Origin: the human T2T-CHM13v2.0 reference genome, Homo sapiens
Reading direction: 5' to 3'
NCBI GenBank assembly: GCA_009914755.4
Contig: CP086569.2
Span: 29,856,001-29,920,000 of the forward strand
DNA: 64,000 nt
Numbering within the stretch: position 1 is the first letter of the stretch; each line of letters begins with the position of its first letter. Position numbers and translations under genes: made by a program. A model generated the notes under the pieces. That model had not been told where the DNA came from and did not search any database. It saw only the letters and a list, made by a program, of their open reading frames with translations. This document shows, in pieces, positions 10,001 to 35,040 of the stretch.

Positions 10001-10660
10001 AAGAAATGGAATTGAAAGGAATGGGATCGAATACAATGGAATATATTGGAATGTAACGTAATGAACTCGAATGTAATTGACTGGAATGGAATGTACATGA
10101 ATGGAATGTGATCGAATGGAAAGTAGTCCAATGGAATAGAATCTAATGCAATAAAATCGACTCAGATAGAGTAGAATGTAATGGAATGGAGTGCAGTGCA
10201 ATGGAATGGAATGGAATGGAATGCAATGGAATGGAATGGAATGGAATGGAATGGAATGGAATGGAATGGAATGGGATGGAATGGTATGGAATGGATAGTA
10301 ATGGACTGGAGTGAAATGGACTGGAAAGGAATGGACTCAAATTGAAAGGGCTCGAAAGGAATGGAGTCAAATGGAATGGTCTGGAATGGAATGAACACGA
10401 ATGTAATGCAACCCAATAGAATGGAATCGAATGGCATGGAATATAAAGAAATGGAATCGAAGAGAATGGAAACAAATGGAATGGAATTGAATGGAATGGA
10501 ATTGAATGGAATGGGAACGAATGGAGTGAAATTGTATGCAGTAGAAGGGAATAGAATGGAATGCAAGCGAAAGGAAAGGAATGGATTGGAATGGAATGGA
10601 ATTCATTGGAATGGAAGGGAATGTAGTGTAATGGACAGGCCTGGAATAAAGTGGAATGCT
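7087..10660 (+). repeat. HOR copy 3 (3574 bp); carries the 15-bp duplication but not the 10-bp insertion
   Basis: Anchor spacing. Duplicated ggaagggaatcgaac at ~8009-8038. Confidence 0.9.
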
Positions 10661-13600: not shown

Positions 13601-14243
13601 GGAATGGGATCGAATACAATGGAATATACTGGAATGTAACGTAATGAACTCGAATGTAATTGACTGGAATGGAATGTACATGAATGGAATGTAATCGAAT
13701 GGAAAGTAATCCAATGGAATAGAATCTAATGCAATAAAATCGACTCAGATAGAGTAGAATGTAATGGAATGGAGTGCAGTGCAATGGAATGGAATGGAAT
13801 GGAATGCAATGGAATGGAATGGAATGGAATGGAATGGAATGGAATGGAATGGAATGGGATGGAATGGTATGGAATGGATAGTAATGGACTGGAGTGAAAT
13901 GGACTGGAAAGGAATGGACTCAAATTGAAAGGGCTCGAAAGGAATGGAGTCAAATGGAATGGTCTGGAATGGAATGAACACGAATGTAATGCAACCCAAT
14001 AGAATGGAATCGAATGGCATGGAATATAAAGAAATGGAATCGAAGAGAATGGAAACAAATGGAATGGAATTGAATGGAATGGAATTGAATGGAATGGGAA
14101 CGAATGGAGTGAAATTGTATGCAGTAGAAGGGAATAGAATGGAATGCAAGCGAAAGGAAAGGAATGGATTGGAATGGAATGGAATTCATTGGAATGGAAG
14201 GGAATGTAGTGTAATGGACAGGCCTGGAATAAAGTGGAATGCT
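10661..14243 (+). repeat. HOR copy 4 (3583 bp, the longest); has the 15-bp duplication, the 10-bp insertion, and the longest pure (GGAAT)n tract
   Basis: Anchor spacing. A (ggaat)x9 run lies at ~13811-13855. Confidence 0.9.
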
Positions 14244-17200
14244 ACGGTCTCGAATGGAATAAAAATGTATGGAATGGAATGCAATGAAACGGAATCGAAT
14301 GTCATAGAATGTAATGGAATGCAAAAAAATGGAATCCAAAATCATTGACTGGAAAGGCTGGGTGTCGAAAGGAATTGACTCCAATGGAATGGAATCGAAT
14401 GGAATGGAAGTGAATAGAATCGAACTAAATCGAATGGAATGGAATTGATAGGAACGGAATGGAAAGGAATGCAATGATTTGGCATGGAATGGAATCGAAT
14501 GGCATCGAATGGAATGGAATGGAATGCAATGGAATGGAATGTATTAGAATGTAATGAACTTTAATGGAATGTACTCGAATGGATTCGACTGGAATGGAAT
14601 GTTCTGGAAGTGAATGGACTCCAATGGAATGGATTCAAAAGGAATGGAATCGTACGGAATGGAATCTAATGGAATGGAATTAAATGGAAATGAATCAAAT
14701 TGAATAGCACGGAATTGAATTGAATGGAATGGAATGCAATGGAATCTAATGAAACGGAAAGGAAAGGAATGGAATGGAATGGAATGGGCTGGAATGGAAA
14801 GGAATCGAAACGAATGGAATGGAATCGAACTGAAGAGACTGGAATGGAATGCACTGGAATGGAAGGGAGTGTAATGGAAGGTTCTCGAAAAAAATGGAAT
14901 CGAATGGAATGGAATTGAATGGAACGGAATAGAGTCGAATGGAATTGAATGGAATGGAATGGACTAGAGTGAAATGGAATCGAACCACAAGGAATGGACA
15001 GGAATAGAATGGTCTCGAATTGAATGGAATCGTATGGAATGGCATCAAACGGAATGGAATGGACAGCCACGGAATGGAATGCACTCGAATGCAATGGAGT
15101 GGAAACTAATGGACTGGAATAGAATGGACTCGACTGGTACGGACTCCAATGGAATGGAATCGAATGGAAGGGAATCGAACGGAAGGGAATCGAACGGAAT
15201 GGACTCGAAGGGAAAAGACTGCAATGGAAAGGTCTCGAATGGAATGGAAATTAATGGAATGGAATGGAATCGAATGAAATGGAGTCAAAAGGAATGGAAT
15301 CGAATGGCAAGAAATCGAATGTAATGGAATCGCCAGGAATTGATGTGAACGGAACGGAATGGAATGGAATCCAAAGGAATGGAATAGAATGGAATGGAAT
15401 CGAATGGAAAGGACTCGAATGGAAATCACTCGAATAGAATGCAATTTAATAAAATAGGATCAAATGTAATGGAATGGAATGGAAAGGAATCGAAACGAAA
15501 GGAATGGAGACAGATGGAATGGAATGGAACAGAGAGCAATGGTATAGAATGGAATGGAATCATCTGGAATGGAATTGAATGGAATGGAATAATATGAAAT
15601 GGAATGGAATGGAATGGAATGGAATGCCCTTGAATTAAATGGACTGGACTCGAACAGAGTGGAATGGAAAGTGTTGAGATAGAATGGAATGGACTCCTTT
15701 GGAATGGTCTAGTATGCAATGCAATCGACTGGCAGGGAATCAAAAGGAATGTAATCGAATGGATTGGACTGGAATGCAATGGACTCGAATAGATTGGAAA
15801 CGGAATGCAAAGGAATGGAATGGAATAGTATGGAATGCAATGGAAGGGAATGGAGTGGAATAGACTAGAGTGGAATGGAATGGACTGGAAAGCAATGGAC
15901 TGGAATGGAACTTTCTTGGATGGACTGGAATCAAACGGAATGGAATGCAATGCAATCAAATGGCATGGAATAAAATAGAATGAAAGAGAATCAAATGGAA
16001 TTGAATCGAATGGAATCGAATGGATTGGAAAGGAATAGAATGGAATGGAATGGAATTGACTCAAATGGAATGGACTAGAATGGAATGGATTCGAATGGAA
16101 GGCAAAGGAATGGAATCTATTGGAATGGACTGTAATGGAATGGAATGGAAGGGATTGGAATGGACTCGAATGGAATGGACTGCAATAGAAAGGATTCGAA
16201 TGGAATGAAAAAGAATTGAATGGAATAGAACAGAATGGAATCAAATCGAATGAAATGGAATGGAATAGAAAGGAATGGAATGAAATGGAATGGAAAGGAT
16301 TCGAATGGAATGCAATCGAATGGAATGGAATCGAACGGAATGGAATAAAATGGAAGAAAACTGGCAAGAAATGGAATCGAAATGAATGGAGTGTTATGGA
16401 ACGGACTCAAAAGGAATTGAATGTAATAGAATGGAGTGGAGTGGACTCGAATATAATGGACTGGAATGGAATGAAATCACATGGAATGGGAACGAATGGA
16501 ATGGAATGGAAAGGAATGGAATCGAATGGAAAGGAATCGAATGGAAGGGAATGAAATTGAATCAACAGGAATGGGAGGGAATAGAATAGACTGTAATGGA
16601 ATGGACTCGAATAGAATGTACACGAATCCTCAAATTAAATGGACTCGAATGGAATGGAAACGAAAGGAATGTCATCGAATGGAATTGAATCGATTGGAAT
16701 GAAATCGCATAGAATGGAGTGGAATCAAATGGAATTGAATCGAAAGGAAAGGAAGCGAATGGACTGAAATGAAATGGAATGGAATTGAATGGAAAGTAAT
16801 GCAATGGAATAGAATGGAACGAAATTTCACGGAACGGAATCAAACTGAATTAAATCAAATCAATGGAATCAAATCAAATGGAATGGAAAGGAATTGAATG
16901 GAGTAGATGGGATTGGATGGGATTGGAATGAAATGTACTGGAAAGGACTCGAATTTCATGAAACGGAATGGAATGAATTGGAACGGAATGGACTCGAATG
17001 GAATGGAATGTCATGGAATGGCATCAAATGGAATGGCATCAAATGGAATGGAATCGAATGCAATGGAATGCTATGGAATGGAATGGAATGCATTGGAATG
17101 GAATGTCCTCTAATGGAATGGATTCGAGTGGAATGGAATTGAATATAATGGAGTCGAATGAAATGGAATTGAAAGGAATGGGATCGAATACAATGGAATA

Positions 17201-17797
17201 TATTGGAATGTAACGTAATGAACTCGAATGTAATTGACTGGAATGGAATGTACATGAATGGAATGTGATCGAATGGAAAGTAGTCCAATGGAATAGAATC
17301 TAATGCAATAAAATCGACTCAGATAGAGTAGAATGTAATGGAATGGAGTGCAGTGCAATGGAATGGAATGGAATGGAATGCAATGGAATGGAATGGAATG
17401 GAATGGAATGGGATGGAATGGTATGGAATGGATAGTAATGGACTGGAGTGAAATGGACTGGAAAGGAATGGACTCAAATTGAAAGGGCTCGAAAGGAATG
17501 GAGACAAATGGAATGGTCTGGAATGGAATGAACACGAATGTAATGCAATCCAATAGAATGGAGTCGAATGGCATGGAATATAAAGAAATGGAATCGAAGA
17601 GAATGGAAACAAATGGAATGGAATTGAATGGAATGGAATTGAATGGAATGGGAACGAATGGAGTGAAATTGTATGCAGTAGAAGAGAATAGAATGGAATG
17701 CAAGCGAAAGGAAAGGAATGGATTGGAATGGAATGGAATTCATTGGAATGGAAGGGAATGTAGTGTAATGGACAGGCCTGGAATAAAGTGGAATGCT
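14244..17797 (+). repeat. HOR copy 5 (3554 bp); a recombinant copy whose 5' part matches the 15-bp-duplication haplotype and whose 3' part matches the copies 6-8 haplotype
   Basis: Duplication at ~15166-15195. The 3' end carries the gagacaaatgg and gcaatccaatag variants at ~17498-17550, which are shared with copies 6-9. Confidence 0.85.
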
Positions 17798-20700
17798 ACG
17801 GTCTCGAATGGAATAAAAATGTATGGAATGGAATGCAATGAAACGGAATCGAATGTCATAGAATGTAATGGAATGCAAAAAAATGGAATCCAAAATCATT
17901 GACTGGAAAGGCTGGGTGTCGAAAGGAATTGACTCCAATGGAATGGAATCGAATGGAATGGAAGTGAATAGAATCGAACTAAATCGAATGGAATGGAATT
18001 GATAGGAACGGAATGGAAAGGAATGCAATGATTTGTCATGGAATGGAATCGAATGGCATCGAATGGAATGGAATGGAATGCAATGGAATGGAATGTATTA
18101 GAATGTAATGAACTTTAATGGAATGTACTCGAATGGATTCGACTGGAATGGAATGTTCTGGAAGTGAATGGACTCCAATGGAATGGATTCAAAAGGAATG
18201 GAATCGTACGGAATGGAATCTAATGGAATGGAATTAAATGGAAATGAATCAAATTGAATAGCACGGAATTGAATTGAATGGAATGGAATGCAATGGAATC
18301 TAATGAAACGGAAAGGAAAGGAATGGAATGGAATGGAATGGGCTGGAATGGAAAGGAATCGAAACGAATGGAATGGAATCGAACTGAAGAGACTGGAATG
18401 GAATGCACTGGAATGGAAGGGAGTGTAATGGAAGGTTCTCGAAAAAAATGGAATCGAATGGAATGGAATTGAATGGAACGGAATAGAGTCGAATGGAATT
18501 GAATGGAATGGAATGGACTAGAGTGAAATGGAATCGAACCACAAGGAATGGACAGGAATAGAATGGTCTCGAATTGAATGGAATCGTATGGAATGGCATC
18601 AAACGGAATGGAATGGACAGCCACGGAATGGAATGCACTCGAATGCAATGGAGTCGAAACTAATGGACTGGAATAGAATGGACTCGACTGGTACGGACTC
18701 CAATGGAATGGAATCGAATGGAAGGGAATCGAACGGAATGGACTCGAAGGGAAAAGACTGCAATGGAAAGGTCTCGAATGGAATGGAAATTAATGGAATG
18801 GAATGGAATCGAATGAAATGGAGTCAAAAGGAATGGAATCGATTGGCAAGAAATCGAATGTAATGGAATCGCAAGGAATTGATGTGAACGGAACGGAATG
18901 GAATGGAATCCAAAGGAATGGAATAGAATGGAATGGAATCGAATGGAAAGGACTCGAATGGAAATCACTCGAATAGAATGCAATTTAATAAAATAGGATC
19001 AAATGTAATGGAATGGAATGGAAAGGAATCGAAACGAAAGGAATGGAGACAGATGGAATGGAATGGAACAGAGAGCAATGGTATAGAATGGAATGGAATC
19101 ATCTGGAATGGAATTGAATGGAATGGAATAATATGAAATGGAATGGAATGGAATGGAATGGAATGCCCTTGAATTAAATGGACTGGACTCGAACAGAGTG
19201 GAATGGAAAGTGTTGAGATAGAATGGAATGGACTCCTTTGGAATGGTCTAGTATGCAATGCAATCGACTGGCAGGGAATCAAAAGGAATGTAATGGAATG
19301 GATTGGACTGGAATGCAATGGACTCGAATAGATTGGAAACGGAATGCAAAGGAATGGAATGGAATAGTATGGAATGGAATGGAAAGGAATGGAGTGGAAT
19401 AGACTAGAGTGGAATGGAATGGACTGGAAAGCAATGGACTGGAATGGAACATTCTTGAATGGACTGGAATCAAACGGAATGGAATGCAATGCAATCAAAT
19501 GTCATGGAATAAAATAGAATGAAAGAGAATCAAATGGAATTGAATCGAATGGAATCGAATGGATTGGAAAGGAATAGAATGGAATGGAATGGAATTGACT
19601 CAAATGGAATGGACTAGAATGGAATGGATTCGAATGGAAGGCAAAGGAATGGAATCTATTGGAATGGACTGTAATGGAATGGAATGGAAAGGATTGGAAT
19701 GGACTCGAATGGAATGGACTGCAATAGAAAGGATTCGAATGGAATGAAAAAGAATTGAATGGAATAGAACAGAATGGAATCAAATCGAATGAAATGGAAT
19801 GGAATAGAAAGGAATGGAATGAAATGGAATGGAAAGGATTCGAATGGAATGTAATCGAATGGAATGGAATCGAACGGAATGGAATAAAATGGAAGAAAAC
19901 TGGCAAGAAATGGAATCGAAATGAATGGAGTGTTATGGAACGGACTCAAAAGGAATTGAATGTAATAGAATGGAGTGGAGTGGACTCGAATATAATGGAC
20001 TGGAATGGAATGAAATCACATGGAATGGGAACGAATGGAATGGAATGGAAAGGAATGGAATCGAATGGAAAGGAATCGAATGGAAGGGAATGAAATTGAA
20101 TCAACAGGAATGGGAGGGAATAGAATAGACTGTAATGGAATGGACTCGAATAGAATGTACACGAATGCTCAAATTAAATGGACTCGAATGGAATGGAAAC
20201 GAAAGGAATGTCATCGAATGGAATTGAATCGATTGGAATGAAATCGCATAGAATGGAGTGGAATCAAATGGAATTGAATCGAAAGGAAAGGAAGCGAATG
20301 GACTGAAATGAAATGGAATGGAATTGAATGGAAAGTAATGCAATGGAATAGAATGGAACGAAATTTCACGGAATGGAATCAAACTGAATGGAATCAAATC
20401 AATGGAATCAAATCAAATGGAATGGAAAGGAATTGAATGGAGTAGATGGGATTGGATGGGATTGGAATGAAATGTACTGGAAAGGACTCGAATTTCATGA
20501 AACGGAATGGAATGAATTGGAACGGAATGGACTCGAATGGAATGGAATGTCATGGAATGGCATCAAATGGAATGGCATCAAATGGAATGGAATCGAATGC
20601 AATGGAATGCTATGGAATGGAATGGAATGCATTGGAATGGAATGTCCTCTAATGGAATGGATTCGAGTGGAATGGAATTGAATATAATGGAGTCGAATGA

Positions 20701-21336
20701 AATGGAATTGAAAGGAATGGGATCGAATACAATGGAATATATTGGAATGTAACGTAATGAACTCGAATGTAATTGACTGGAATGGAATGTACATGAATGG
20801 AATGTGATCAAATGGAAAGTAGTCCAATGGAATAGAATCTAATGCAATAAAATCGACTCAGATAGAGTAGAATGTAATGGAATGGAGTGCAGTGCAATGG
20901 AATGGAATGGAATGGAATGCAATGGAATGGAATGGAATGGAATGGAATGGGATAGAATGGTATGGAATGGATAGTAATGGACTGGAGTGAAATGGACTGG
21001 AAAGGAATGGACTCAAATTGAAAGGGCTCGAAAGGAATGGAGACAAATGGAATGGTCTGGAATGGAATGAACACGAATGTAATGCAATCCAATAGAATGG
21101 AGTCGAATGGCATGGAATATAAAGAAATGGAATCGAAGAGAATGGAAACAAATGGAATGGAATTGAATGGAATGGAATTGAATGGAATGGGAACGAATGG
21201 AGTGAAATTGTATGCAGTAGAAGAGAATAGAATGGAATGCAAGCGAAAGGAAAGGAATGGATTGGAATGGAATGGAATTCATTGGAATGGAAGGGAATGT
21301 AGTGTAATGGACAGGCCTGGAATAAAGTGGAATGCT
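17798..21336 (+). repeat. HOR copy 6 (3539 bp); first copy of the near-identical block 6-8
   Basis: No 15-bp duplication. HSE-B variant gaacattcttgaa at 19447-19459. gagacaaatgg variant present. Confidence 0.9.
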
Positions 21337-24300
21337 ACGGTCTCGAATGGAATAAAAATGTATGGAATGGAATGCAATGAAACGGAATCGAATGTCATAG
21401 AATGTAATGGAATGCAAAAAAATGGAATCCAAAATCATTGACTGGAAAGGCTGGGTGTCGAAAGGAATTGACTCCAATGGAATGGAATCGAATGGAATGG
21501 AAGTGAATAGAATCGAACTAAATCGAATGGAATGGAATTGATAGGAACGGAATGGAAAGGAATGCAATGATTTGTCATGGAATGGAATCGAATGGCATCG
21601 AATGGAATGGAATGGAATGCAATGGAATGGAATGTATTAGAATGTAATGAACTTTAATGGAATGTACTCGAATGGATTCGACTGGAATGGAATGTTCTGG
21701 AAGTGAATGGACTCCAATGGAATGGATTCAAAAGGAATGGAATCGTACGGAATGGAATCTAATGGAATGGAATTAAATGGAAATGAATCAAATTGAATAG
21801 CACGGAATTGAATTGAATGGAATGGAATGCAATGGAATCTAATGAAACGGAAAGGAAAGGAATGGAATGGAATGGAATGGGCTGGAATGGAAAGGAATCG
21901 AAACGAATGGAATGGAATCGAACTGAAGAGACTGGAATGGAATGCACTGGAATGGAAGGGAGTGTAATGGAAGGTTCTCGAAAAAAATGGAATCGAATGG
22001 AATGGAATTGAATGGAACGGAATAGAGTCGAATGGAATTGAATGGAATGGAATGGACTAGAGTGAAATGGAATCGAACCACAAGGAATGGACAGGAATAG
22101 AATGGTCTCGAATTGAATGGAATCGTATGGAATGGCATCAAACGGAATGGAATGGACAGCCACGGAATGGAATGCACTCGAATGCAATGGAGTCGAAACT
22201 AATGGACTGGAATAGAATGGACTCGACTGGTACGGACTCCAATGGAATGGAATCGAATGGAAGGGAATCGAACGGAATGGACTCGAAGGGAAAAGACTGC
22301 AATGGAAAGGTCTCGAATGGAATGGAAATTAATGGAATGGAATGGAATCGAATGAAATGGAGTCAAAAGGAATGGAATCGATTGGCAAGAAATCGAATGT
22401 AATGGAATCGCAAGGAATTGATGTGAACGGAACGGAATGGAATGGAATCCAAAGGAATGGAATAGAATGGAATGGAATCGAATGGAAAGGACTCGAATGG
22501 AAATCACTCGAATAGAATGCAATTTAATAAAATAGGATCAAATGTAATGGAATGGAATGGAGAGGAATCGAAACGAAAGGAATGGAGACAGATGGAATGG
22601 AATGGAACAGAGAGCAATGGTATAGAATGGAATGGAATCATCTGGAATGGAATTGAATGGAATGGAATAATATGAAATGGAATGGAATGGAATGGAATGG
22701 AATGCCCTTGAATTAAATGGACTGGACTCGAACAGAGTGGAATGGAAAGTGTTGAGATAGAATGGAATGGACTCCTTTGGAATGGTCTAGTATGCAATGC
22801 AATCGACTGGCAGGGAATCAAAAGGAATGTAATGGAATGGATTGGACTGGAATGCAATGGACTCGAATAGATTGGAAACGGAATGCAAAGGAATGGAATG
22901 GAATAGTATGGAATGGAATGGAAAGGAATGGAGTGGAATAGACTAGAGTGGAATGGAATGGACTGGAAAGCAATGGACTGGAATGGAACATTCTTGAATG
23001 GACTGGAATCAAACGGAATGGAATGCAATGCAATCAAATGGCATGGAATAAAATAGAATGAAAGAGAATCAAATGGAATTGAATCGAATGGAATCGAATG
23101 GATTGGAAAGGAATAGAATGGAATGGAATGGAATTGACTCAAATGGAATGGACTAGAATGGAATGGATTCGAATGGAAGGCAAAGGAATGGAATCTATTG
23201 GAATGGACTGTAATGGAATGGAATGGAAAGGATTGGAATGGACTCGAATGGAATGGACTGCAATAGAAAGGATTCGAATGGAATGAAAAAGAATTGAATG
23301 GAATAGAACAGAATGGAATCAAATCGAATGAAATGGAATGGAATAGAAAGGAATGGAATGAAATGGAATGGAAAGGATTCGAATGGAATGTAATCGAATG
23401 GAATGGAATCGAACGGAATGGAATAAAATGGAAGAAAACTGGCAAGAAATGGAATCGAAATGAATGGAGTGTTATGGAACGGACTCAAAAGGAATTGAAT
23501 GTAATAGAATGGAGTGGAGTGGACTCGAATATAATGGACTGGAATGGAATGAAATCACATGGAATGGGAACGAATGGAATGGAATGGAAAGGAATGGAAT
23601 CGAATGGAAAGGAATCGAATGGAAGGGAATGAAATTGAATCAACAGGAATGGGAGGGAATAGAATAGACTGTAATGGAATGGACTCGAATAGAATGTACA
23701 CGAATGCTCAAATTAAATGGACTCGAATGGAATGGAAACGAAAGGAATGTCATCGAATGGAATTGAATCGATTGGAATGAAATCGCATAGAATGGAGTGG
23801 AATCAAATGGAATTGAATCGAAAGGAAAGGAAGCGAATGGACTGAAATGAAATGGAATGGAATTGAATGGAAAGTAATGCAATGGAATAGAATGGAACGA
23901 AATTTCACGGAATGGAATCAAACTGAATTGAATCAAATCAATGGAATCAAATCAAATGGAATGGAAAGGAATTGAATGGAGTAGATTGGATTGGATGGGA
24001 TTGGAATGAAATGTACTGGAAAGGACTCGAATTTCATGAAACGGAATGGAATGAATTGGAACGGAATGGACTCGAATGGAATGGAATGTCATGGAATGGC
24101 ATCAAATGGAATGGCATCAAATGGAATGGAATCGAATGCAATGGAATGCTATGGAATGGAATGGAATGCATTGGAATGGAATGTCCTCTAATGGAATGGA
24201 TTCGAGTGGAATGGAATTGAATATAATGGAGTCGAATGAAATGGAATTGAAAGGAATGGGATCGAATACAATGGAATATATTGGAATGTAACGTAATGAA

Positions 24301-24875
24301 CTCGAATGTAATTGACTGGAATGGAATGTATATGAATGGAATGTGATCGAATGGAAAGTAGTCCAATGGAATAGAATCTAATGCAATAAAATCGACTCAG
24401 ATAGAGTAGAATGTAATGGAATGGAGTGCAGTGCAATGGAATGGAATGGAATGGAATGCAATGGAATGGAATGGAATGGAATGGAATGGGATGGAATGGT
24501 ATGGAATGGATAGTAATGGACTGGAGTGAAATGGACTGGAAAGGAATGGACTCAAATTGAAAGGGCTCGAAAGGAATGGAGACAAATGGAATGGTCTGGA
24601 ATGGAATGAACACGAATGTAATGCAATCCAATAGAATGGAGTCGAATGGCATGGAATATAAAGAAATGGAATCGAAGAGAATGGAAACAAATGGAATGGA
24701 ATTGAATGGAATGGAATTGAATGGAATGGGAACGAATGGAGTGAAATGATATGCAGTAGAAGAGAATAGAATGGAATGCAAGCGAAAGGAAAGGAATGGA
24801 TTGGAATGGAATGGAATTCATTGGAATGGAAGGGAATGTAGTGTAATGGACAGGCCTGGAATAAAGTGGAATGCT
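21337..24875 (+). repeat. HOR copy 7 (3539 bp), near-identical to copy 6
   Basis: Identical length to copy 6, and its ORF-track peptides match those of copy 6. Confidence 0.9.
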
Positions 24876-27800
24876 ACGGTCTCGAATGGAATAAAAATGT
24901 ATGGAATGGAATGCAATGAAACGGAATCGAATGTCATAGAATGTAATGGAATGCAAAAAAATGGAATCCAAAATCATTGACTGGAAAGGCTGGGTGTCGA
25001 AAGGAATTGACTCCAATGGAATGGAATCGAATGGAATGGAAGTGAATAGAATCGAACTAAATCGAATGGAATGGAATTGATAGGAACGGAATGGAAAGGA
25101 ATGCAATGATTTGGCATGGAATGGAATCGAATGGCATCGAATGGAATGGAATGGAATGCAATGTAATGGAATGTATTAGAATGTAATGAACTTTAATGGA
25201 ATGTACTCGAATGGATTCGACTGGAATGGAATGTTCTGGAAGTGAATGGACTCCAATGGAATGGATTCAAAAGGAATGGAATCGTACGGAATGGAATCTA
25301 ATGGAATGGAATTAAATGGAAATGAATCAAATTGAATAGCACGGAATTGAATTGAATGGAATGGAATGCAATGGAATCTAATGAAACGGAAAGGAAAGGA
25401 ATGGAATGGAATGGAATGGGCTGGAATGGAAAGGAATCGAAACGAATGGAATGGAATCGAAGTGAAGAGACTGGAATGGAATGCACTGGAATGGAAGGGA
25501 GTGTAATGGAAGGTTCTCGAAAAAAATGGAATCGAATGGAATGGAATTGAATGGAACGGAATAGAGTCGAATGGAATTGAATGGAATGGAATGGACTAGA
25601 GTGAAATGGAATCGAACCACAAGGAATGGACAGGAATAGAATGGTCTCGAATTGAATGGAATCGTATGGAATGGCATCAAACGGAATGGAATGGACAGCC
25701 ACGGAATGGAATGCACTCGAATGCAATGGAGTCGAAACTAATGGACTGGAATAGAATGGACTCGACTGGTACGGACTCCAATGGAATGGAATCGAATGGA
25801 AGGGAATCGAACGGAATGGACTCGAAGGGAAAAGACTGCAATGGAAAGGTCTCGAATGGAATGGAAATTAATGGAATGGAATGGAATCGAATGAAATGGA
25901 GTCAAAAGGAATGGAATCGAATGGCAAGAAATCGAATGTAATGGAATCGCAAGGAATTGATGTGAACGGAACGGAATGGAATGGAATCCAAAGGAATGGA
26001 ATAGAATGGAATGGAATCGAATGGAAAGGACTCGAATGGAAATCACTCGAATAGAATGCAATTTAATAAAATAGGATCAAATGTAATGGAATGGAATGGA
26101 AAGGAATCGAAACGAAAGGAATGGAGACAGATGGAATGGAATGGAACAGAGAGCAATGGTATAGAATGGAATGGAATCATCTGGAATGGAATTGAATGGA
26201 ATGGAATAATATGAAATGGAATGGAATGGAATGGAATGGAATGCCCTTGAATTAAATGGACTGGACTCGAACAGAGTGGAATGGAAAGTGTTGAGATAGA
26301 ATGGAATGGACTCCTTTGGAATGGTCTAGTATGCAATGCAATCGACTAGCAGGGAATCAAAAGGAATGTAATGGAATGGATTGGACTGGAATGCAATGGA
26401 CTCGAATAGATTGGAAACGGAATGCAAAGGAATGGAATGGAATAGTATGGAATGGAATGGAAAGGAATGGAGTGGAATAGACTAGAGTGGAATGGAATGG
26501 ACTGGAAAGCAATAGACTGGAATGGAACATTCTAGAATGGACTGGAATCAAACGGAATGGAATGCAATGCAATCAAATGGCATGGAATAAAATAGAATGA
26601 AAGAGAATCAAATGGAATTGAATCGAATGGAATCGAATGGATTGGAAAGGAATAGAATGGAATGGAATGGAATTGACTCAAATGGAATGGACTAGAATGG
26701 AATGGATTCGAATGGAAGGCAAAGGAATGGAATCTATTGGAATGGACTGTAATGGAATGGAATGGAAAGGATTGGAATGGACTCGAATGGAATGGACTGC
26801 AATAGAAAGGATTCGAATGGAATGAAAAAGAATTGAATGGAATAGAACAGAATGGAATCAAATCGAATGAAATGGAATGGAATAGAAAGGAATGGAATGA
26901 AATGGAATGGAAAGGATTCGAATGGAATGTAATCGAATGGAATGGAATCGAACGGAATGGAATAAAATGGAAGAAAACTGGCAAGAAATGGAATCGAAAT
27001 GAATGGAGTGTTATGGAACGGACTCAAAAGGAATTGAATGTAATAGAATGGAGTGGAGTGGACTCGAATATAATGGACTGGAATGGAATGAAATCACATG
27101 GAATGGGAACGAATGGAATGGAATGGAAAGGAATGGAATCGAATGGAAAGGAATCGAATGGAAGGGAATGAAACTGAATCAACAGGAATGGAAGGGAATA
27201 GAATAGACGGTAATGGAATGGACTCGAATAGAATGGACACGAATGCTCAAATTGAATGGACTCGAATGGAATGGAAACGAAAGGAATGTCATCGAATGGA
27301 ATTGAATCGATTGGAATGAAATCGCATAGAATGGAGTGGAATCAAATGGAATTGAATCGAAAGGAAAGGAAGCGAATGGACTGAAATGAAATGGAATGGA
27401 ATTGAATGGAAAGTAATGCAATGGAATAGAATGGAACGAAATTTCACGGAATGGAATCAAACTGAATGGAATCAAATCAATGGAATCAAATCAAATGGAA
27501 TGGAAAGGAATTGAATGGAGTAGATGGGATTGGATGGGATTGGAATGAAATGTACTGGAAAGGACTCGAATTTCATGAAACGGAATGGAATGAATTGGAA
27601 CGGAATGGACTCGAATGGAATGGAATGTCATGGAATGGCATCAAATGGAATGGCATCAAATGGAATGGAATCGAATGCAATGGAATGCTATGGAATGGAA
27701 TGGAATGCATTGGAATGGAATGTCCTCTAATGGAATGGATTCGAGTGTAATGGAATCGAATATAATGGAGTCGAATGAAATGGAATTGAAAGGAATGGGA

Positions 27801-28399
27801 TCGAATACAATGGAATATACTGGAATGTAACGTAATGAACTCGAATGTAATTGACTGGAATGGAATGTACATGAATGGAATGTAATCGAATGGAAAGTAA
27901 TCCAATGGAATAGAATCTAATGCAATAAAATCGACTCAGATAGAGTAGAATGTAATGGAATGGAGTGCAGTGCAATGGAATGGAATGGAATGGAATGCAA
28001 TGGAATGGAATGGGATGGAATGGTATGGAATGGATAGTAATGGACTGGAGTGAAATGGACTGGAAAGGAATGGACTCAAATTGAAAGGGCTCGAAAGGAA
28101 TGGAGACAAATGGAATGGTCTGGAATGGAATGAACACGAATGTAATGCAATCCAATAGAATGGAGTCGAATGGCATGGAATATAAAGAAATGGAATCGAA
28201 GAGAATGGAAACAAATGGAATGGAATTGAATGGAATGGAATTGAATGGAATGGGAACGAATGGAGTGAAATTGTATGCAGTAGAAGAGAATAGAATGGAA
28301 TGCAAGCGAAAGGAAAGGAATGGATTGGAATGGAATGGAATTCATTGGAATGGAAGGGAATGTAGTGTAATGGACAGGCCTGGAATAAAGTGGAATGCT
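24876..28399 (+). repeat. HOR copy 8 (3524 bp), of the copies 6-8 type; shorter because of a contracted pure-pentamer tract
   Basis: HSE-B variant gaacattctagaa at 26525-26537. Short (ggaat) runs at ~27981-28025. Confidence 0.9.
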
Positions 28400-31300
28400 A
28401 CGGTCTCGAATGGAATAAAAATGTATGGAATGGAATGCAATGAAACGGAATCGAATGTCATAGAATGTAATGGAATGCAAAAAAATGGAATCCAAAATCA
28501 TTGACTGGAAAGGCTGGGTGTCGAAAGGAATTGACTCCAATGGAATGGAATCGAATGGAATGGAAGTGAATAGAATCGAACTAAATCGAATGGAATGGAA
28601 TTGATAGGAACGGAATGGAAAGGAATGCAATGATTTGGCATGGAATGGAATCGAATGGCATCGAATGGAATGGAATGGAATGCAATGGAATGGAATGTAT
28701 TAGAATATAATGAACTTTAATGGAATGTACTCGAATGGATTCGACTGGAATGGAATGCTCTGGAAGTGAATGGACTCCAATGGAATGGATTCAAAAGGAA
28801 TGGAATCGTACGGAATGGAATCTAATGGAATGGAATTAAATGGAAATGAATCAAATTGAATAGGACGGAATTGAATTGAATGGAATCGAATGCAATGGAA
28901 TCTAATGAAACGGAAAGGAAAGGAATGGAATGGAATGGAATGGGCTGGAATGGAAAGGAATCGAAACGAATGGAATGGAATCGAACTGAAGAGACTGGAA
29001 TGGAATGCACTGGAATGGAAGGGAGTGTAATGAAAGGTTCTCGAAAAAAATGGAATCGAATGGAATGGAATTGAATGGAACGGAATAGAGTCGAATGGAA
29101 TTGAATGGAATGGAATGGACTAGAGTGAAATGGAATCGAACCACAAGGAATGGACAGGAATAGAATGGTCTCGAATTGAATGGAATCGTATGGAATGGCA
29201 TCAAACGGAATGGAATGGACAGCCACGGAATGGAATGCACTCGAATGCAATGGAGTCGAAACTAATGGACTGGAATAGAATGGACTCGACTGGTACGGAC
29301 TCCAATGGAATGGAATCGAATGGAAGGGAATCGAACGGAATGGACTCGAAGGGAAAAGACTGCAATGGAAAGGTCTCGAATGGAATGGAAATTAATGGAA
29401 TGGAATGGAATCGAATGAAATGGAGTCAAAAGGAATGGAATCGAATGGCAAGAAATCGAATGTAATGGAATCGCAAGGAATTGATGTGAACGGAACGGAA
29501 TGGAATGGAATCCAAAGGAATGGAATAGAATGGAATGGAATCGAATGGAAAGGACTCGAATGGAAATCACTCGAATAGAATGCAATTTAATAAAATAGGA
29601 TCAAATGTAATGGAATGGAATGGAAAGGAATCGAAACGAAAGGAATGGAGACAGATGGAATGGAATGGAACAGAGAGCAATGGTATAGAATGGAATGGAA
29701 TCATCTGGAATGGAATTGAATGGAATGGAATAATATGAAATCGAATGAAATGGAATGGAACGGAATGCCCTTGAATTAAATGGACTGGAATGGAATGGAC
29801 TCAAACAGAGTGGAATGGAAAGTGTGGAGATAGAATGGAATGAACTCCTTTGGAATGGTGTAGTATGCAATGCAATCGACTGGCAGGGAATCAAAAGGAA
29901 TGTAATCGAATGGATTGGACTGGAATGCAATGGACTCGAATAGATTGGAAACGGAATGCAAAGGAATGGAATGGAATAGTGTGGAATGCAATGGAAGGGA
30001 ATGGAGTGGAATAGACTAGAGTGGAATGGAATGGACTGGAAAGCAATGGACTGGAATGGAACTTTCTTGGATGGACTGGAATCAAACGGAATGGAATGCA
30101 ATGCAATCAAATGGCATGGAATAAAATAGAATGAAAGAGAATCAAATGGAATTGAATCGAATGGAATCGAATGGATTGGAAAGGAATAGAATGGAATGGA
30201 ATGGAATTGACTCAAATGGAATGGACTAGAATGGAATGGATTCGAATGGAAGGCAAAGGAATGGAATCTATTGGAATGGACTGTAATGGAATGGAATGGA
30301 AGGGATTGGAATGGACTCGAATGGAATGGACTGCAATAGAAAGGATTCGAATGGAATGAAAAATAATTGAATGGAATAGAACAGAATGGAATCAAATCGA
30401 ATGAAATGGAATGGAATAGAAAGGAATGGAATGAAATGGAATGGAAAGGATTCGAATGGAATGCAATCGAATGGAATGGAATCGAACGGAATGGAATATA
30501 ATGGAAGAAAACTGGCAAGAAATGGAATCGAAATGAATGGAGTGTTATGGAACGGACTCAAAAGGAATTGAATGTAATAGAATGGAGTGGAGTGGACTCG
30601 AATATAATGGACTGGAATGGAATGAAATCACATGGAATGGGAACGAATGGAATGGAATGGAAAGGAATGGAATCGAATGGAAAGGAATCGAATGGAAGGG
30701 AATGAAATTGAATCAACAGGAATGGAAGGGTATAGAATAGACTGTAATGGAATGGACTCGAATAGAATGGACACGAATGCTCAAATTAAATGGACTCGAA
30801 TGGAATGGAAACGAAAGGAATGTCATCGAATGGAATTGAATCGATTGGAATGAAATCGCATAGAATGGAGTGGAATCAAATGGAATTGAATCGAAAGGAA
30901 AGGAAGCGAATGGACTGAAATGAAATGGAATGGAATTGAATGGAAAGAAATGCAATGGAATAGAATGGAACGAAATTTCACGGAATGGAATCAAACTGAA
31001 TGGAATCAAATCAATGGAATCAAATCAAATGGAATGGAAAGGAATTGAATGGAGTAGATGGGATTGGATGGGATTGGAATGAAATGTACTGGAAAGGACT
31101 CGAATTTCATGAAACGGAATGGAATGAATTGGAACGGAATGGACTCGAATGGAATGGAATGTCATGGGATGGCATCAAATGGAATGGCATCAAATGGAAT
31201 GGAATCGAATGCAATGGAATGCTATGGAATGGAATGGAATGCATTGGAATGGAATGTCCTCTAATGGAATGGATTCGAGTGGAATGGAATTGAATATAAT

Positions 31301-31932
31301 GGAGTCGAATGAAATGGAATTGAAAGGAATGGGATCGAATACAATGGAATATACTGGAATGTAACGTAATGAACTCGAATGTAATTGACTGGAATGGAAT
31401 GTACATGAATGGAATGTAATCGAATGGAAAGTAATCCAATGGAATAGAATCTAATGCAATAAAATCGACTCAGATAGAGTAGAATGTAATGGAATGGAGT
31501 GCAGTGCAATGGAATGGAATGGAATGGAATGCAATGGAATGGAATGGGATGGAATGGTATGGAATGGATAGTAATGGACTGGAGTGAACTGGACTGGAAA
31601 GGAATGGACTGAAATTGAAAGGGCTCGAAAGGAATGGAGACAAATGGAATGGTCTGGAATGGAATGAACACGAATGTAATGCAATCCAATAGAATGGAGT
31701 CGAATGGCATGGAATATAAAGAAATGGAATCGAAGAGAATGGAAACAAATGGAATGGAATTGAATGGAATGGAATTGAATGGAATGGGAACGAATGGAGT
31801 GAAATTGTATGCAGTAGAAGAGAATAGAATGGAATGCAAGCGAAAGGAAAGAATGGATTGGAATGGAATGGAATTCATTGGAATGGAAGGGAATGTAGTG
31901 TAATGGACAGGCCTGGAATAAAGTGGAATGCT
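28400..31932 (+). repeat. HOR copy 9 (3533 bp); a recombinant copy whose 5' part matches copies 2/4/17 (10-bp insertion, ctcaaacag) and whose 3' part matches copies 6-8
   Basis: Insertion variant at ~29781-29810. gagacaaatgg at ~31634. Confidence 0.85.
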
Positions 31933-34900
31933 ACGGTCTCGAATGGAATAAAAATGTATGGAATGGAATGCAATGAAACGGAATCGAATGTCATAGAATG
32001 TAATGGAATGCAAAAAACTGGAATCCAAAATCATTGACTGGAAAGGCTGGGTGTCGAAAGGAATTGACTCCAATGGTATGGAATCGAATGGAATGGAAGT
32101 GAATAGAATCGAACTAAATCGAATGGAATGGAATTGATAGGAACGGAACGGAAAGGAATGCAATGATTTGGCATGGAATGGAATCGAACGGCATCGAATG
32201 GAATGGAATGGAATGCAAAGGAATGGAATGTATTAGAATGTAATGAACTTTAATGGAATGTACTCGAATGGATTCGACTGGAATGGAATGTTCTGGAAGT
32301 GAATGGACTCCAATGGAATGGATTCAAAAGGAATGGAATCGTACGGAATGGAATGTAATGGAATGGAATTAAATGGAAATGAATCAAATTGAATAGCACG
32401 GAATTGAATTGAATGGAATCGAATGCAATGGAATCTAATGAAACGGAAAGGAAAGGAATGGAATGGAATAGAATGGGATGGAATGGAAAGGAATCGAAAC
32501 GAATGGAATGGAATCGAAGTGAAGAGACTGGAATGGAATGCACTGGAATGGAAGGGAGTGTAATGGAAGGTTCTCGAAAAAAATGGAATCGAATGGAATG
32601 GAATTGAATGGAACGGAATAGAGTCGAATGGAATTGAATGGAATGGAATGGACTAGAGTGAAATGGAATCGAACCACAAGGAATGGACAGGAATAGAATG
32701 GTCTCGAATTGAATGGAATCGTATGGAATGGCATCAAACGGAATGGAATGGACAGCCACGGAATGGAATGCACTCGAATGCAATGGAGTCGAAACTAATG
32801 GACTGGAATAGAATGGACTCGACTGGTACGGACTCCAATGGAATGGAATCGAATGGAAGGGAATCGAACGGAATGGACTCGAAGGGAAAAGACTGCAATG
32901 GAAAGGTCTCGAATGGAATGGAAATTAATGGAATGGAATGGAATCGAATGAAATGGAGTCAAAAGGAATGGAATCGAATGGCAAGAAATCGAATGTAATG
33001 GAATCGCAAGGAATTGATGTGAACGGAACGGAATGGAATGGAATCCAAAGGAATGGAATAGAATGGAATGGAATCGAATGGAAAGGACTCGAATGGAAAT
33101 CACTCGAATAGAATGCAATTTAATAAAATAGGATCAAATGTAATGGAATGGAATGGAAAGGAATCGAAACGAAAGGAATGGAGAGAGATGGAATGGAATG
33201 GAACAGAGAGCAATGGTATAGAATGGAATGGAATCATCTGGAATGGAATTGAATGGAATGGAATAATATGAAATGGAATGGAATGGAATGGAATGGAATG
33301 CCCTTGAATTAAATGGACTGGACTCGAACAGAGTGGAATGGAAAGTGTTGAGATAGAATGGAATGGACTCCTTTGGAATGGTCTAGTATGCAATGCAATC
33401 GACTGGCAGGGAACCAAAAGGAATGTAATGGAATGGATTGGAGTGGAATGCAATGGACTCGAATAGATTGGAAACGGAATGCAAAGGAATGGAATGGAAT
33501 AGTATGGAATGGAAAGAAATGGAATGGAAAGGATTCGAATGGAATGCAATCGAATGGAATGGAATCGAACGGAATGGAATAAAATGGAAGAAAACTGGCA
33601 AGAAATGGAATCGAAATGAATGGAGTGTTATGGAAGGGACTCAAAAGGAATTGAATGTAATAGAATGGAGTGGAGTGGACTCGAATATAATGGACTGGAA
33701 TGGAATGAAATCACATGGAATGGGAACGAATGGAATGGAATGGAAAGGAATGGAATCGAATGGAAAGGAATCGAATGGAAGGGAATGAAATTGAATCAAC
33801 AGGAATGGAAGGGAATAGAATAGACTGTAATGGAATGGACTCGAATAGAATGGACACGAATGCTCAAATTAAATGGACTCGAATGGAATGGAAACGAAAG
33901 GAATGTCATCGAATGGAATTGAATCGATTGGAATGAAATCGCATAGAATGGAGTGGAATCAAATGGAATTGAATCGAAAGGAAAGGAAGCGAATGGACTG
34001 AAATGAAATGGAATGGAATTGAATGGAAACTAATGCAATGGAATAGAATGGAACGAAATTTCACGGAATGGAATCAAACTGAATGGAATCAAATCAATGG
34101 AATCAAATCAAATGGAATGGAAAGGAATTGAATGGAGTAGATTGGATTGGATGGGATTGGAATGAAATGTACTGGAAAGGACTCGAATTTCATGAAACGG
34201 AATGGAATGAATTGGAACGGAATGGACTCGAATGGAATGGAATGTCATGGAATGGCATCAAATGGAATGGCATCAAATGGAATGGAATCGAATGCAATGG
34301 AATGCTATGGAATGGAATGGAATGCATTGGAATGGAATGTCCTCTAATGGAATGGATTCGAGTGGAATGGAATCGAATATAATGGAGTCGAATGAAATGG
34401 AATTGAAAGGAATGGGATCGAATACAATGGAATATACTGGAATGTAACGTAATGAACTCGAATGTAATTGACTGGAATGGAATGTACATGAATGGAATGT
34501 AATCGAATGGAAAGTAATCCAATGGAATAGAATCTAATGCAATAAAATCGACTCAGATAGAGTAGAATGTAATGGAATGGAGTGCAGTGCAATGGAATGG
34601 AATGGAATGGAATGCAATGGAATGGAATGGAATGGAATGGAATGGAATGGAATGGGATGGAATGGTATGGAATGGATAGTAATGGACTGGAGTGAAATGG
34701 ACTGGAAATGAATGGACTCAAATTGAAAGGGCTCGAAAGGAATGGAGTCAAAAGGAATGGTCTGGAATGGAATGAACACGAATGTAATGCAATCCAAAAG
34801 AATGGAATCGAATGGCATGGAATATAAAGAAATGGAATCGAAGAGAATGGAAACAAATGGAATGGAATTGAATGGAATGGAATTGAATGGAATGGGAACG

Positions 34901-35040
34901 AATGGAGTGAAATTGTATGCAGTAGAAGGGAATAGCATGGAATGCAAGCGAAAGGAAAGAATGGATTGGAATGGAATGGAATTCATTGGAATGGAAGGGA
35001 ATGTAGTGTAATGGGCAGGCCTGGAATAAAGTGGAATGCT
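31933..35040 (+). repeat. HOR copy 10 (3108 bp), truncated by an internal deletion of about 447 bp
   Basis: Spacing is 3108 bp against ~3555 bp elsewhere. Sequence jumps from ...aatagtatggaatggaaag straight to aaatggaatggaaaggattcgaatgg at ~33505-33525. Confidence 0.9.
33505..33525 (+). other. Deletion junction inside HOR copy 10; about 447 bp of the unit is missing, apparently lost between tggaatggaaagga-type microhomologies
   Basis: Compare copy 9: the sequence between ~29985 (agtgtggaatgcaatggaaggg...) and ~30445 (...gaaatggaatggaaaggattcg) has no counterpart here. Confidence 0.8.

What the first reader, a model, noticed from the sequence alone, without database searches (positions are those of the whole stretch)
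14244..31932. Array is a mosaic of locally homogenised HOR haplotypes with recombinant copies at block edges
Diagnostic variants cluster by position. Copies 2-5 share a 15-bp tandem duplication. Copies 6-8 are near-identical (gagacaaatgg, gcaatccaatag, gaacattcttgaa). Copies 11-16 share aacttatgg, gaaaataatggaagcaaatgg, a 1-bp deletion (gggattcgaacgg) and gttacggtctcg. Copy 17 reverts to the haplotype of copies 2 and 4. Copy 5 is 5'-like block 2-4 and 3'-like block 6-8. Copy 9 is 5'-like copies 2/4/17 and 3'-like block 6-8. This is the footprint of unequal crossing-over or gene conversion acting over a few adjacent repeats, and the hybrid copies would mark crossover points.
Basis: seen in the sequence. 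Interest (0 to 1): 0.5.

Follow-up and report, generated by a model that had tools for sequence, protein, structure and literature searches.

The report
Locally homogenised human Y DYZ1 satellite
The window is an ordinary stretch of the human Y-chromosome DYZ1 satellite (3.56-kb repeats built from GGAAT pentamers); neighbouring repeats do form look-alike blocks with patchwork copies between them, which is the published footprint of unequal sister-chromatid exchange and gene conversion in this array.

Summary
The window holds 18 full ~3.55-kb units plus a 478-bp partial unit of human DYZ1/HSat3A6 (Yq12). The finding's interval, 14244-31932, is exactly copies 5-9.

- **Local similarity:** copy-to-copy distance rises with separation for about 5 units and then plateaus (Mantel p=0.002; adjacent-pair test p<5e-5).
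- **Clades:** supported groups are {c11-15} 97%, {c11-16} 92%, {c6,c7} 99% and {c3,c5} 97%. "Block 2-5" is two interleaved haplotypes, c2/c4 and c3/c5. Copy 8 joins 6-7 only weakly (38%). Copy 17 does resemble c2/c4.
- **Mosaic copies:** copy 5 equals copy 3 for its first ~3150 columns, then switches to the c6-8 type. This survives an all-triplet correction (p≈0.05). Copy 9 is a three-part mosaic; its 3' switch to the c8 type is significant only as a pre-specified test (p≈0.005). Copies 3 and 16 are also mosaics.
- **Recombination signal:** the PHI test gives p=0.007.

Unequal sister-chromatid exchange and paralogous gene conversion in Yq12 are already published from T2T-Y, from 43 assembled Y chromosomes and from pedigree data. 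Verdict: already known, low interest.

The parts
1..63522 (+). 18 full DYZ1/HSat3A6 units of 3108-3583 bp, with GGAAT on the + strand. Unit starts are 1, 3529, 7087, 10661, 14244, 17798, 21337, 24876, 28400, 31933, 35041, 38594, 42154, 45718, 49272, 52821, 56385 and 59954.
   Evidence: Exact 20-mer anchor spacing; TRF pentamer-derived periods; one HaeIII site per unit; HSat3A6-specific 24-mer found 34 times; published DYZ1 primers match once per unit.
63523..64000 (+). Partial 19th unit (478 bp), cut by the window end.
   Evidence: over its first 420 bases (ungapped comparison) it is closest to c3, c4, c5 and c18, with 2 mismatches each.
14244..31932 (+). The finding's interval, which is exactly copies 5-9.
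   Evidence: Unit boundaries.
6661..10224 (+). One-unit tract (c2 col 3155 to c3 col 3154) that is near-identical to 13808-17381. The pair lies two units apart and differs by 2 substitutions plus the pentamer-run length.
   Evidence: u2 vs u4 = 3 character differences; coordinates.
13808..17381 (+). Partner of the tract above (c4 col 3155 to c5 col 3154).
16852..17504 (.). Switch interval in copy 5. Upstream it equals c3; downstream it equals c6-c9. The interval contains the variable (AATGG)n run at about 17360-17410.
   Evidence: p=0.0006; p=0.0008; family-wise p≈0.05.
10126..10225 (.). Switch interval in copy 3. Upstream it equals c5; downstream it equals c2/c4.
   Evidence: p=0.0002; family-wise p≈0.04.
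17798..24875 (+). Copies 6 and 7, the tightest adjacent pair: 9 substitutions, no indels, both 3539 bp. Phase-free, the offset-1 tract runs from c5 col 2642 to c8 col 2086.
   Evidence: (99% bootstrap).
29475..29786 (.). 5' switch interval in copy 9, from consensus/c6-8-like to c2/4/17-like. Placed by eye from the site pattern; not separately tested.
   Evidence: pattern 10010111111111111111110000; coordinates.
31291..31640 (.). 3' switch interval in copy 9, from c17/c4-like to c8-like. c9 shares a 35-bp pentamer-run deletion with c8.
   Evidence: p=0.005; p=0.006; not significant in the unguided scan.
35041..52820 (+). Copies 11-15, the best-supported multi-copy local clade. c12-c15 differ from each other by 17-28 substitutions; c11 is more divergent.
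   Evidence: 97% bootstrap.
55209..55481 (.). Switch interval in copy 16, from c13-like at the 5' end to c4/c17-like at the 3' end.
   Evidence: p=0.0002; p=0.0008; family-wise p=0.13.
56385..59953 (+). Copy 17, the same haplotype family as copies 2 and 4, including the 15-bp duplication at 57307.
15166..15195 (+). 15-bp tandem duplication GGAAGGGAATCGAAC x2 in copy 5. The same duplication starts at 4450 (c2), 8009 (c3), 11583 (c4) and 57307 (c17).
31933..35040 (+). Copy 10, a short unit of 3108 bp with a 440-bp internal deletion. The junction is at about 33506, between two ~30-bp stretches of the unit that are ~90% alike.

Best explanation
**What it is.** The window is a piece of one DYZ1 (HSat3A6) array from the heterochromatic long arm (Yq12) of a human Y chromosome. 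It consists of 3.56-kb higher-order units built from diverged GGAAT pentamers.

**How the pattern arises.** This region has no homologue to recombine with. The array therefore evolves by out-of-register repair between sister chromatids, or within one chromatid. Two processes are inferred to act together.
1. Unequal exchange duplicates or deletes one or a few whole units. This would create runs of near-identical neighbours, such as c6-c7, c11-c15 and the two-unit-offset pair c2/3 = c4/5.
2. Non-reciprocal gene conversion copies patches between paralogous units, from a few hundred bp to about one unit long. This would create mosaic units such as c3, c5, c9 and c16, and site patterns that fit no single tree.

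A background haplotype (c2, c4, c17, and parts of c9 and c16) persists on both sides of the locally expanded blocks. Units that look 'hybrid' are places where a tract boundary falls inside the arbitrarily phased unit.

**Shown here:** the identity of the satellite, the decay of similarity with distance, the clades, the mosaic structure and the breakpoint intervals.

**Inferred:** the molecular mechanism and the split between crossover and conversion. These rest on the published behaviour of Yq12.
For: **Identity**
- The HSat3A6-specific 24-mer occurs 34 times, and 13 other HSat2/3 subfamily 24-mers occur 0 times.
- Published DYZ1 primers B-F match exactly and once per unit, each in 5 to 18 of the 18 units.
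- There is one HaeIII site per unit, and unit lengths are 3524-3583 bp, including two of 3569 bp.
- GC is 38.8% and CpG density is 1 per 35 bp, equal to the published DYZ1 values.

**Local homogenisation**
- Mantel p=0.002; adjacency test p<5e-5.
- Clades of adjacent copies have 92-99% bootstrap support.

**Exchange or conversion**
- PHI p=0.007, and four-gamete failures rise from 14% for sites under 100 bp apart to 36% for sites over 2.5 kb apart.
- Breakpoints are found in c3, c5, c9 and c16.
- Phase-free painting finds constant-offset tracts that run across unit boundaries.
- Short internal islands, such as c3/c5 columns 1408-1465, fit conversion better than a single crossover.

**Literature**
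- Rearrangement patterns in Yq12 are described as consistent with unequal exchange, and sister-chromatid exchanges were seen in Yq12 in about 15% of Strand-seq libraries.
- 29% of de novo Yq12 single-nucleotide changes match paralogous sites, and the mutation rate is about 3.9e-7 per bp per generation.
- 17% of de novo Yq12 events in a second pedigree analysis were classed as gene conversion.
- The Ts:Tv ratio here is 0.75 and only 10% of variable columns are CpG-type, which fits conversion-driven rather than point-mutation-driven variation.
Against: - Only one haplotype of 18 units is available, so no event can be polarised or dated directly.
- The c9 and c16 breakpoints do not survive family-wise correction.
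- The near-identical tract at two-unit offset is one unit long, not the two units a single recent two-unit unequal exchange would leave. At least that case needs conversion or several events.
- Part of the 3' signal in c5, c8 and c9 comes from the length of a pentamer run that is prone to slippage and homoplasy. Four flanking substitutions in c5 do agree with it.
- Assembly errors cannot be checked without reads.
Confidence: 0.82

Rival explanations
1. Pure unequal crossing-over. Every block and every hybrid unit is the direct product of reciprocal out-of-register sister-chromatid exchanges, and the hybrids mark the crossover points.
For: - Blocks of adjacent similar units exist, and unit-length classes are shared by neighbours: c6 = c7 = 3539 bp and c17 = c18 = 3569 bp.
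- Constant-offset tracts span unit boundaries.
- The T2T-Y paper attributes Yq12 structure to unequal exchange.
Against: - A k-unit unequal exchange leaves a near-identical tract k units long. The offset-2 tract is only one unit long, and its flanks clearly differ.
- c3, c5 and c9 carry short internal islands of the other haplotype.
- Pedigree data show paralogue-matching single-nucleotide changes without copy-number change.
Confidence: 0.1
2. No exchange at all. The shared variants arise from tandem duplication history alone (a tree), plus recurrent mutation at hypermutable sites such as CpGs and pentamer-run slippage.
For: - The (AATGG)n run has six length alleles among 18 copies.
- DYZ1 is CpG-rich and methylated.
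- The Yq12 mutation rate is very high.
Against: - Only 5 of 61 informative substitution columns are CpG-type.
- Incompatible site pairs increase with distance between sites, with PHI p=0.007. Site-independent recurrent mutation does not predict this.
- The c5 3' end has four substitutions plus an indel that all switch together.
Confidence: 0.04
3. Assembly artefact. The mosaic units are chimeras made by a long-read assembler or polisher in a satellite that is over 98% identical.
For: - Yq12 is repeatedly described as the hardest region of the Y to assemble.
- No read data are available here.
Against: - The variants form consistent multi-site haplotypes shared by two to six units.
- Random consensus errors would give singletons, not shared tracts.
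- The same class of pattern is reported from validated T2T assemblies and from pedigree transmissions.
Confidence: 0.04

Closest known systems
Human DYZ1 / HSat3A6 satellite of Yq12 (Nakahori 1986; Altemose 2014; Rhie 2023; Hallast 2023)
   Same: - Pentamer-derived units of about 3.56 kb, with a single HaeIII site per unit.
- The subfamily-specific 24-mer and the published primer sites are present.
- GC content and CpG density match published values.
- Units are more than 98% identical to each other (papers).
   Different: Nothing differs in kind. The window shows one short unit (3108 bp) and one unit with an extra HaeIII site. Both fall within the reported range of DYZ1 variation.
Concerted evolution of tandem arrays by unequal sister-chromatid exchange and gene conversion (Smith 1976 model, cited from my own knowledge; its application to Yq12)
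   Same: - Similarity decays with distance.
- Neighbouring units form clades.
- Mosaic units and site incompatibility are present.
   Different: - Similarity is not strictly local: c17 and part of c16 match c2 and c4 at 43-53 kb.
- An interleaved two-haplotype pattern (c2/c4 against c3/c5) indicates a transient two-unit super-period.
Alpha-satellite HOR haplotypes ('HOR-haps') and layered expansions in centromeres (Altemose 2022; from my own knowledge)
   Same: The concept is the same: local variant haplotypes of a higher-order repeat, clustered in blocks by recent local expansion. Hallast et al. draw this parallel for Yq12 explicitly.
   Different: - This is not alpha satellite. The base repeat is a 5-bp pentamer rather than a 171-bp monomer.
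- There is no CENP-B or kinetochore context.
- The location is Yq12 heterochromatin.

Membership tests
DYZ1 / HSat3A6 | Built from diverged GGAAT/ATTCC pentamers | tested here: met
   TRF reports periods of 15, 30 and 45 with GGAAT-type consensus over the whole window. There is a strong, uniform G>C and A>T skew.
DYZ1 / HSat3A6 | Higher-order unit of about 3.56 kb with one HaeIII (GGCC) site per unit | tested here: met
   Unit lengths are 3524-3583 bp, plus one deleted unit of 3108 bp. There is one GGCC per unit, with one extra in c16. Two units are 3569 bp, the modal HaeIII fragment length in Hallast et al..
DYZ1 / HSat3A6 | Subfamily-specific 24-mer TCGTTTCGATTCCTTTCCATTCCA (Altemose 2014, Table 1) | tested here: met
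   34 exact matches, all as the reverse complement on the + strand. The 24-mers of 13 other HSat2/3 subfamilies give 0 matches.
DYZ1 / HSat3A6 | Published DYZ1 PCR primer sites | tested here: met
   From PMC3925983 Table 5, primers B-F match exactly, G with 1 mismatch and A with 2, each at one site per unit where present; primer B matches exactly in only 5 of 18 units, and H was not found with up to 2 substitutions. A 154-bp primer pair recalled from memory also matches once per unit at 154-bp spacing. I could not verify that pair in the paper library.
DYZ1 / HSat3A6 | GC about 38% and about 1 CpG per 35 bp | tested here: met
   The consensus has 38.8% GC and 102 CpG in 3559 bp, against the published values.
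DYZ1 / HSat3A6 | Located in Yq12 and alternating with DYZ2/HSat1B arrays | not testable with these tools
   The window is DYZ1 from end to end, and no human genome reference is available to map it.
Tandem array under local homogenisation (unequal exchange or gene conversion) | Sequence distance increases with the physical separation of units | tested here: met
   Mantel r=0.33, p=0.002. Mean distance rises from 33.5 at 1 unit to 47-49 at 5-11 units. Adjacency permutation p<5e-5.
Tandem array under local homogenisation (unequal exchange or gene conversion) | Adjacent units form supported clades | tested here: met
   {c11-15} 97%, {c11-16} 92% and {c6,c7} 99%. However {c3,c5} 97% and {c2,c4,c9,c17} 70% are clades of non-adjacent units.
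Tandem array under local homogenisation (unequal exchange or gene conversion) | Mosaic units and a recombination signal | tested here: met
   PHI p=0.007. c3/c5 switch family-wise p≈0.04-0.05; c9 single-test p≈0.005; c16 single-test p=0.0002.
Tandem array under local homogenisation (unequal exchange or gene conversion) | Direct observation of unit gain or loss, or of conversion events | not testable with these tools
   This needs related Y chromosomes or father-son pairs. It is reported in the literature for Yq12.
Alpha-satellite HOR array | 171-bp monomers arranged in a higher-order repeat | tested here: not met
   The base period is 5 bp, and no 171-bp periodicity was found.

The most novel reading that the evidence does not exclude
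Exchange or conversion tracts in DYZ1 preferentially end at the longest pure (AATGG)n run of the unit (alignment columns ~3130-3205).

For:
- Both ends of the one-unit near-identical tract (c2/3 = c4/5) lie on this run.
- The switch intervals of c3, c5, c8 and c9 all contain it or lie next to it.
- The run itself has six length alleles among the 18 copies.

If true, this would point to a slippage-prone or break-prone initiation or resolution hotspot inside the unit.

Against: my phase scan and phase-free painting do not single the run out. Only about 3 of 27 switches fall there, and the same number fall at columns 1881-1904.
Probability: 0.12. Interest if true: 0.35.

Novelty: already known. 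Interest (0 to 1): 0.12.

Why it matters
It matters little beyond confirmation. The satellite, its unit structure and its evolution by unequal sister-chromatid exchange and paralogous gene conversion are all described in the T2T-Y paper, the 43-Y assembly paper and the four-generation pedigree papers.

The window is a clean small-scale illustration, at single-unit resolution, of what those papers show at array scale:
- blocks of 2-5 units;
- a transient two-unit super-period;
- mosaic units;
- a background haplotype that recurs 43-53 kb away.

The one methodological point worth keeping is that 'hybrid repeat copies' depend on the arbitrary phase chosen for the unit. Tract boundaries should therefore be mapped phase-free.

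Tried and rejected
- **Primer check in the literature.** Full-text searches for the 154-bp DYZ1 primer pair I recalled from memory found no papers. I used primers printed in PMC3925983 and the Altemose 24-mer instead.
- **Rfam.** A scan of the window found nothing.
- **Single two-unit unequal exchange for c2-c5.** Rejected, because the near-identical tract is one unit long, not two.
- **Breakpoints clustered at the pure pentamer run.** Not supported. The minimum of the phase scan is broad, at columns ~1900-2500, and the painting shows scattered switches.
- **Recurrent CpG mutation as the source of shared variants.** Rejected, because only 5 of 61 informative substitution columns are CpG-type.
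- **Copy 5 as a simple two-parent hybrid of c2/c4 and c6.** Not significant (p=0.13-0.34). It is a hybrid only relative to its twin c3 or to the group consensus.
- **Out-of-register donor for the c3/c5-specific variants at columns 2348-2410.** The k-mer search gave nothing distinctive.
- **Public collection scans** (viral, metagenome, prokaryote genomes, phage, plasmid, E. coli) and the protein tools were not used. The sequence is a non-coding human satellite, and those collections cannot place it.
Full report
**What the sequence is**

The whole 64-kb window is one satellite on one strand. Tandem Repeats Finder reports GGAAT-type periods of 15, 30 and 45 from base 26 to base 63984. Composition is uniform, with GC 0.38-0.40 and a strong G>C and A>T skew. 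K-mer spacing shows a long period of 3524-3583 bp that varies in steps of 5.

An exact 20-mer anchor splits the window into 18 full units and a 478-bp partial one. Unit starts are 1, 3529, 7087, 10661, 14244, 17798, 21337, 24876, 28400, 31933, 35041, 38594, 42154, 45718, 49272, 52821, 56385, 59954 and 63523. The finding's interval, 14244-31932, is exactly copies 5-9. Its text, however, makes claims about copies 2-17.

The satellite is human DYZ1 (HSat3A6) from Yq12. The evidence is as follows.
- The HSat3A6-specific 24-mer printed in Altemose et al. 2014 occurs 34 times. The diagnostic 24-mers of 13 other HSat2/3 subfamilies occur 0 times.
- Of the eight DYZ1 primers printed in PMC3925983, five match exactly at a single site per unit (in 5 to 18 of the 18 units) and two more match with 1-2 mismatches.
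- There is one HaeIII site per unit.
- Two units are 3569 bp, the modal HaeIII fragment length in Hallast et al..
- The consensus has 38.8% GC and 102 CpG in 3559 bp, or 1 per 35 bp. These equal the published DYZ1 figures.
- A 154-bp primer pair I recalled from memory also matches once per unit at the right spacing. I could not verify that pair in the paper library, so it counts only as a lead.
- Rfam finds nothing in the window.

Chromosomal position and alternation with DYZ2 cannot be tested with these tools.

**Is the described pattern there?**

I aligned the 18 units with MAFFT, giving 3590 columns. Units differ by 6-59 substitutions (0.17-1.7%) and 0-7 indel events.

Distance rises with separation. 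The mean is 33.5 for neighbours, 41 at three units and 47-49 from five units onward. The Mantel test gives r=0.33, p=0.002. Adjacent pairs against random order give p<5e-5.

Neighbour-joining with 500 bootstraps gives the following support.

| Clade | Bootstrap |
|---|---|
| {c6,c7} | 99% |
| {c3,c5} | 97% |
| {c11-c15} | 97% |
| {c11-c16} | 92% |
| {c2,c4,c9,c17} | 70% |
| {c6,c7,c8} | 38% |

It is two interleaved haplotypes, c2/c4 and c3/c5. The c3/c5 type is closer to c6/c7 than to c2/c4.

Copy 17 does return to the c2/c4 type. Its nearest neighbours are c2 (25 differences) and c4 (26), and it carries the same perfect 15-bp tandem duplication as copies 2-5.

- GAGACAAATGG is in c5-9 and c11.
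- GCAATCCAATAG is in c5-9, c12-15 and c18.
- GAACATTCTTGAA is only in c6 and c7.
- GAAAATAATGGAAGCAAATGG is missing from c11.
- GGGATTCGAACGG is missing from c15, and it is an A>T substitution rather than a 1-bp deletion.

**The hybrid copies**

*Copy 5.* It differs from copy 3 at 2 positions in columns 1-3154. Within columns 3155-3478 it then differs by a 20-bp pentamer-run deletion and four substitutions. At every one of these, c5 has the c6-c9 state and c3 has the c2/c4 state.
- MaxChi gives p=0.0006 with parents c3 and c6.
- In an all-triplet scan with a family-wise null, the c3/c5 3' switch is the only signal near 0.05.
- Against c2 or c4 alone, copy 5 is not a simple two-parent hybrid (p=0.13-0.34). 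Its pattern is 11111 0000 111111 00000000000, which includes an internal island of the other type.

*Copy 9.* It is a three-part mosaic.
- Columns below about 1100 are consensus-like or c6-8-like, with no 15-bp duplication.
- Columns 1400-2900 are c17/c4/c2-like.
- From column ~3155 it is c8-like and shares a 35-bp deletion with c8.

The 3' switch has p=0.005-0.006 as a pre-specified test, but it does not stand out in the unguided scan.

It is a further mosaic, c13-like at the 5' end and c4/c17-like from column ~2450. The single test gives p=0.0002 and the family-wise test gives 0.13.

*All informative sites together.* 550 of 1830 site pairs fail the four-gamete test. The failure rate rises from 14% for sites under 100 bp apart to 36% for sites over 2.5 kb apart. 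The PHI permutation test gives p=0.007.

**Phase matters**

The start of a satellite unit is arbitrary. I re-phased the units at column 3155. The unit spanning c2/c3 then differs from the unit spanning c4/c5 by only 3 characters, and the unit c5/c6 differs from c6/c7 by 7. Neither needs any donor switch, so the copy-5 'hybrid' disappears.

Phases at columns ~1900-2500 need only 11-15.

A phase-free copying model finds tracts at constant offset that run across unit boundaries.
- c5:2642 to c6:2625 copies the next unit, and c6:2642 to c8:2086 copies the previous unit.
- c2:1670 to c3:3056 copies the unit two ahead.
- c16:1904 to c17 copies c4-c5, twelve units away.

Hybrid units are therefore simply the places where tract boundaries fall. 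They are not a special class of copy.

**Mechanism**

*Shown here:* local similarity, clades, mosaic tracts, and incompatibility that depends on the distance between sites.

*Inferred:* repeated out-of-register repair between sister chromatids or within one chromatid, since this part of the Y has no homologue. Both unequal exchange (unit gain and loss) and non-reciprocal conversion (patches) are needed. Pure unequal exchange does not fit everything, for two reasons.
- A two-unit exchange should leave a two-unit near-identical tract, whereas the observed one is one unit long with clearly divergent flanks.
- c3, c5 and c9 carry short internal islands of the other haplotype.

Recurrent mutation alone does not fit either. 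Only 5 of 61 informative substitution columns are CpG-type, and the sites switch together in tracts.

The literature on this array supports the inference directly.
- Hallast et al. report greater similarity among units in the middle of arrays.
- The four-generation pedigree study reports a Yq12 rate of 3.86e-7 per bp per generation. It also reports that 29% of de novo changes match paralogous sites, which it attributes to interlocus gene conversion.
- A 2026 preprint classes 17% of Yq12 de novo events as gene conversion.

The Ts:Tv ratio of 0.75 in this window agrees with variation that is shuffled among paralogues rather than made by ordinary point mutation.

As a rough inference only, applying that published rate gives the following ages:
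- the c2/3 = c4/5 tract (2 substitutions in ~3560 bp): about 700 generations;
- c6-c7: about 3,300 generations;
- the average pair: about 15,000 generations.

**Comparison and novelty**

Every testable defining feature of DYZ1/HSat3A6 is met. The evolutionary pattern is the textbook outcome of concerted evolution in tandem arrays, and it has been published for Yq12 itself. It resembles alpha-satellite HOR haplotype blocks in concept, but the array is not alpha satellite, because its base period is 5 bp. Nothing here is new in kind.

The only reading with some novelty is that tract ends favour the longest pure (AATGG)n run. Both ends of the one-unit tract and the c3, c5 and c9 intervals touch it, and it has six length alleles. 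My phase scan and painting do not single it out. I give this about 12%.

**Verdict**

The phenomenon is already known, and interest is low.

Noticed in passing
window 31933-35040 (copy 10), junction at about 33506: The unit is only 3108 bp because of a 440-bp (88-pentamer) internal deletion. The deletion ends lie in two ~30-bp stretches of the unit that are about 90% alike (AATGGAATGGAATAG.A.GGAATGGAATG). This points to out-of-register exchange or slippage within a single unit.
   Followed up: partly
alignment columns ~3130-3205 of every unit, e.g. window 17360-17410 in copy 5: The longest pure (AATGG)n run of the unit has six length alleles among the 18 copies, and neighbouring copies tend to share a length class. 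The switch intervals of c3, c5 and c9, and both ends of the c2/3 = c4/5 tract, touch this run. The phase scan and phase-free painting did not single it out as a hotspot.
   Followed up: yes
whole window (all 18 units): The transition:transversion ratio among biallelic substitution columns is 92:123, about 0.75. Only 22 of 221 variable columns are CpG-type, although there is 1 CpG per 35 bp. This is far from the usual germline spectrum. It is compatible with variation being shuffled between paralogous pentamers or units by conversion.
   Followed up: partly
window ~53718 (copy 16, unit position 898): There is an extra HaeIII (GGCC) site, created by an A>C change (GGACTCC to GGCCTCC). This unit would cut into two fragments instead of the canonical 3.56-kb band.
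   Followed up: no
window 3529-17797 (copies 2-5): There is a transient two-unit (~7.1 kb) super-period: c2 resembles c4 (21 substitutions) and c3 resembles c5 (6 substitutions). It also shows as k-mer spacing peaks at 7133-7157 bp. Only one unit length of the pair is near-identical, so a single two-unit duplication does not explain it.
   Followed up: yes
window ~54700-61500 (c16 col 1904 to c18 col 1542) against 12500-15600 (c4 col 1904 to c5): In the phase-free painting, both c16:1904 to c17 and c17:1904 to c18:1542 copy best from c4:1904 to c5, twelve and thirteen units away. In addition, c1:3378 to c2:1634 copies best from c16-c17. This suggests a recurring 'background' tract type on both sides of the locally expanded blocks, or an older multi-unit duplication.
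   Followed up: partly
copies 1, 11 and 18 (window 1-3528, 35041-38593, 59954-63522): These units carry the most private variants (24, 21 and 16 singleton columns). They sit at or next to haplotype transitions or at the window edges. Whether they are older, less homogenised units cannot be decided from 18 copies.
   Followed up: no
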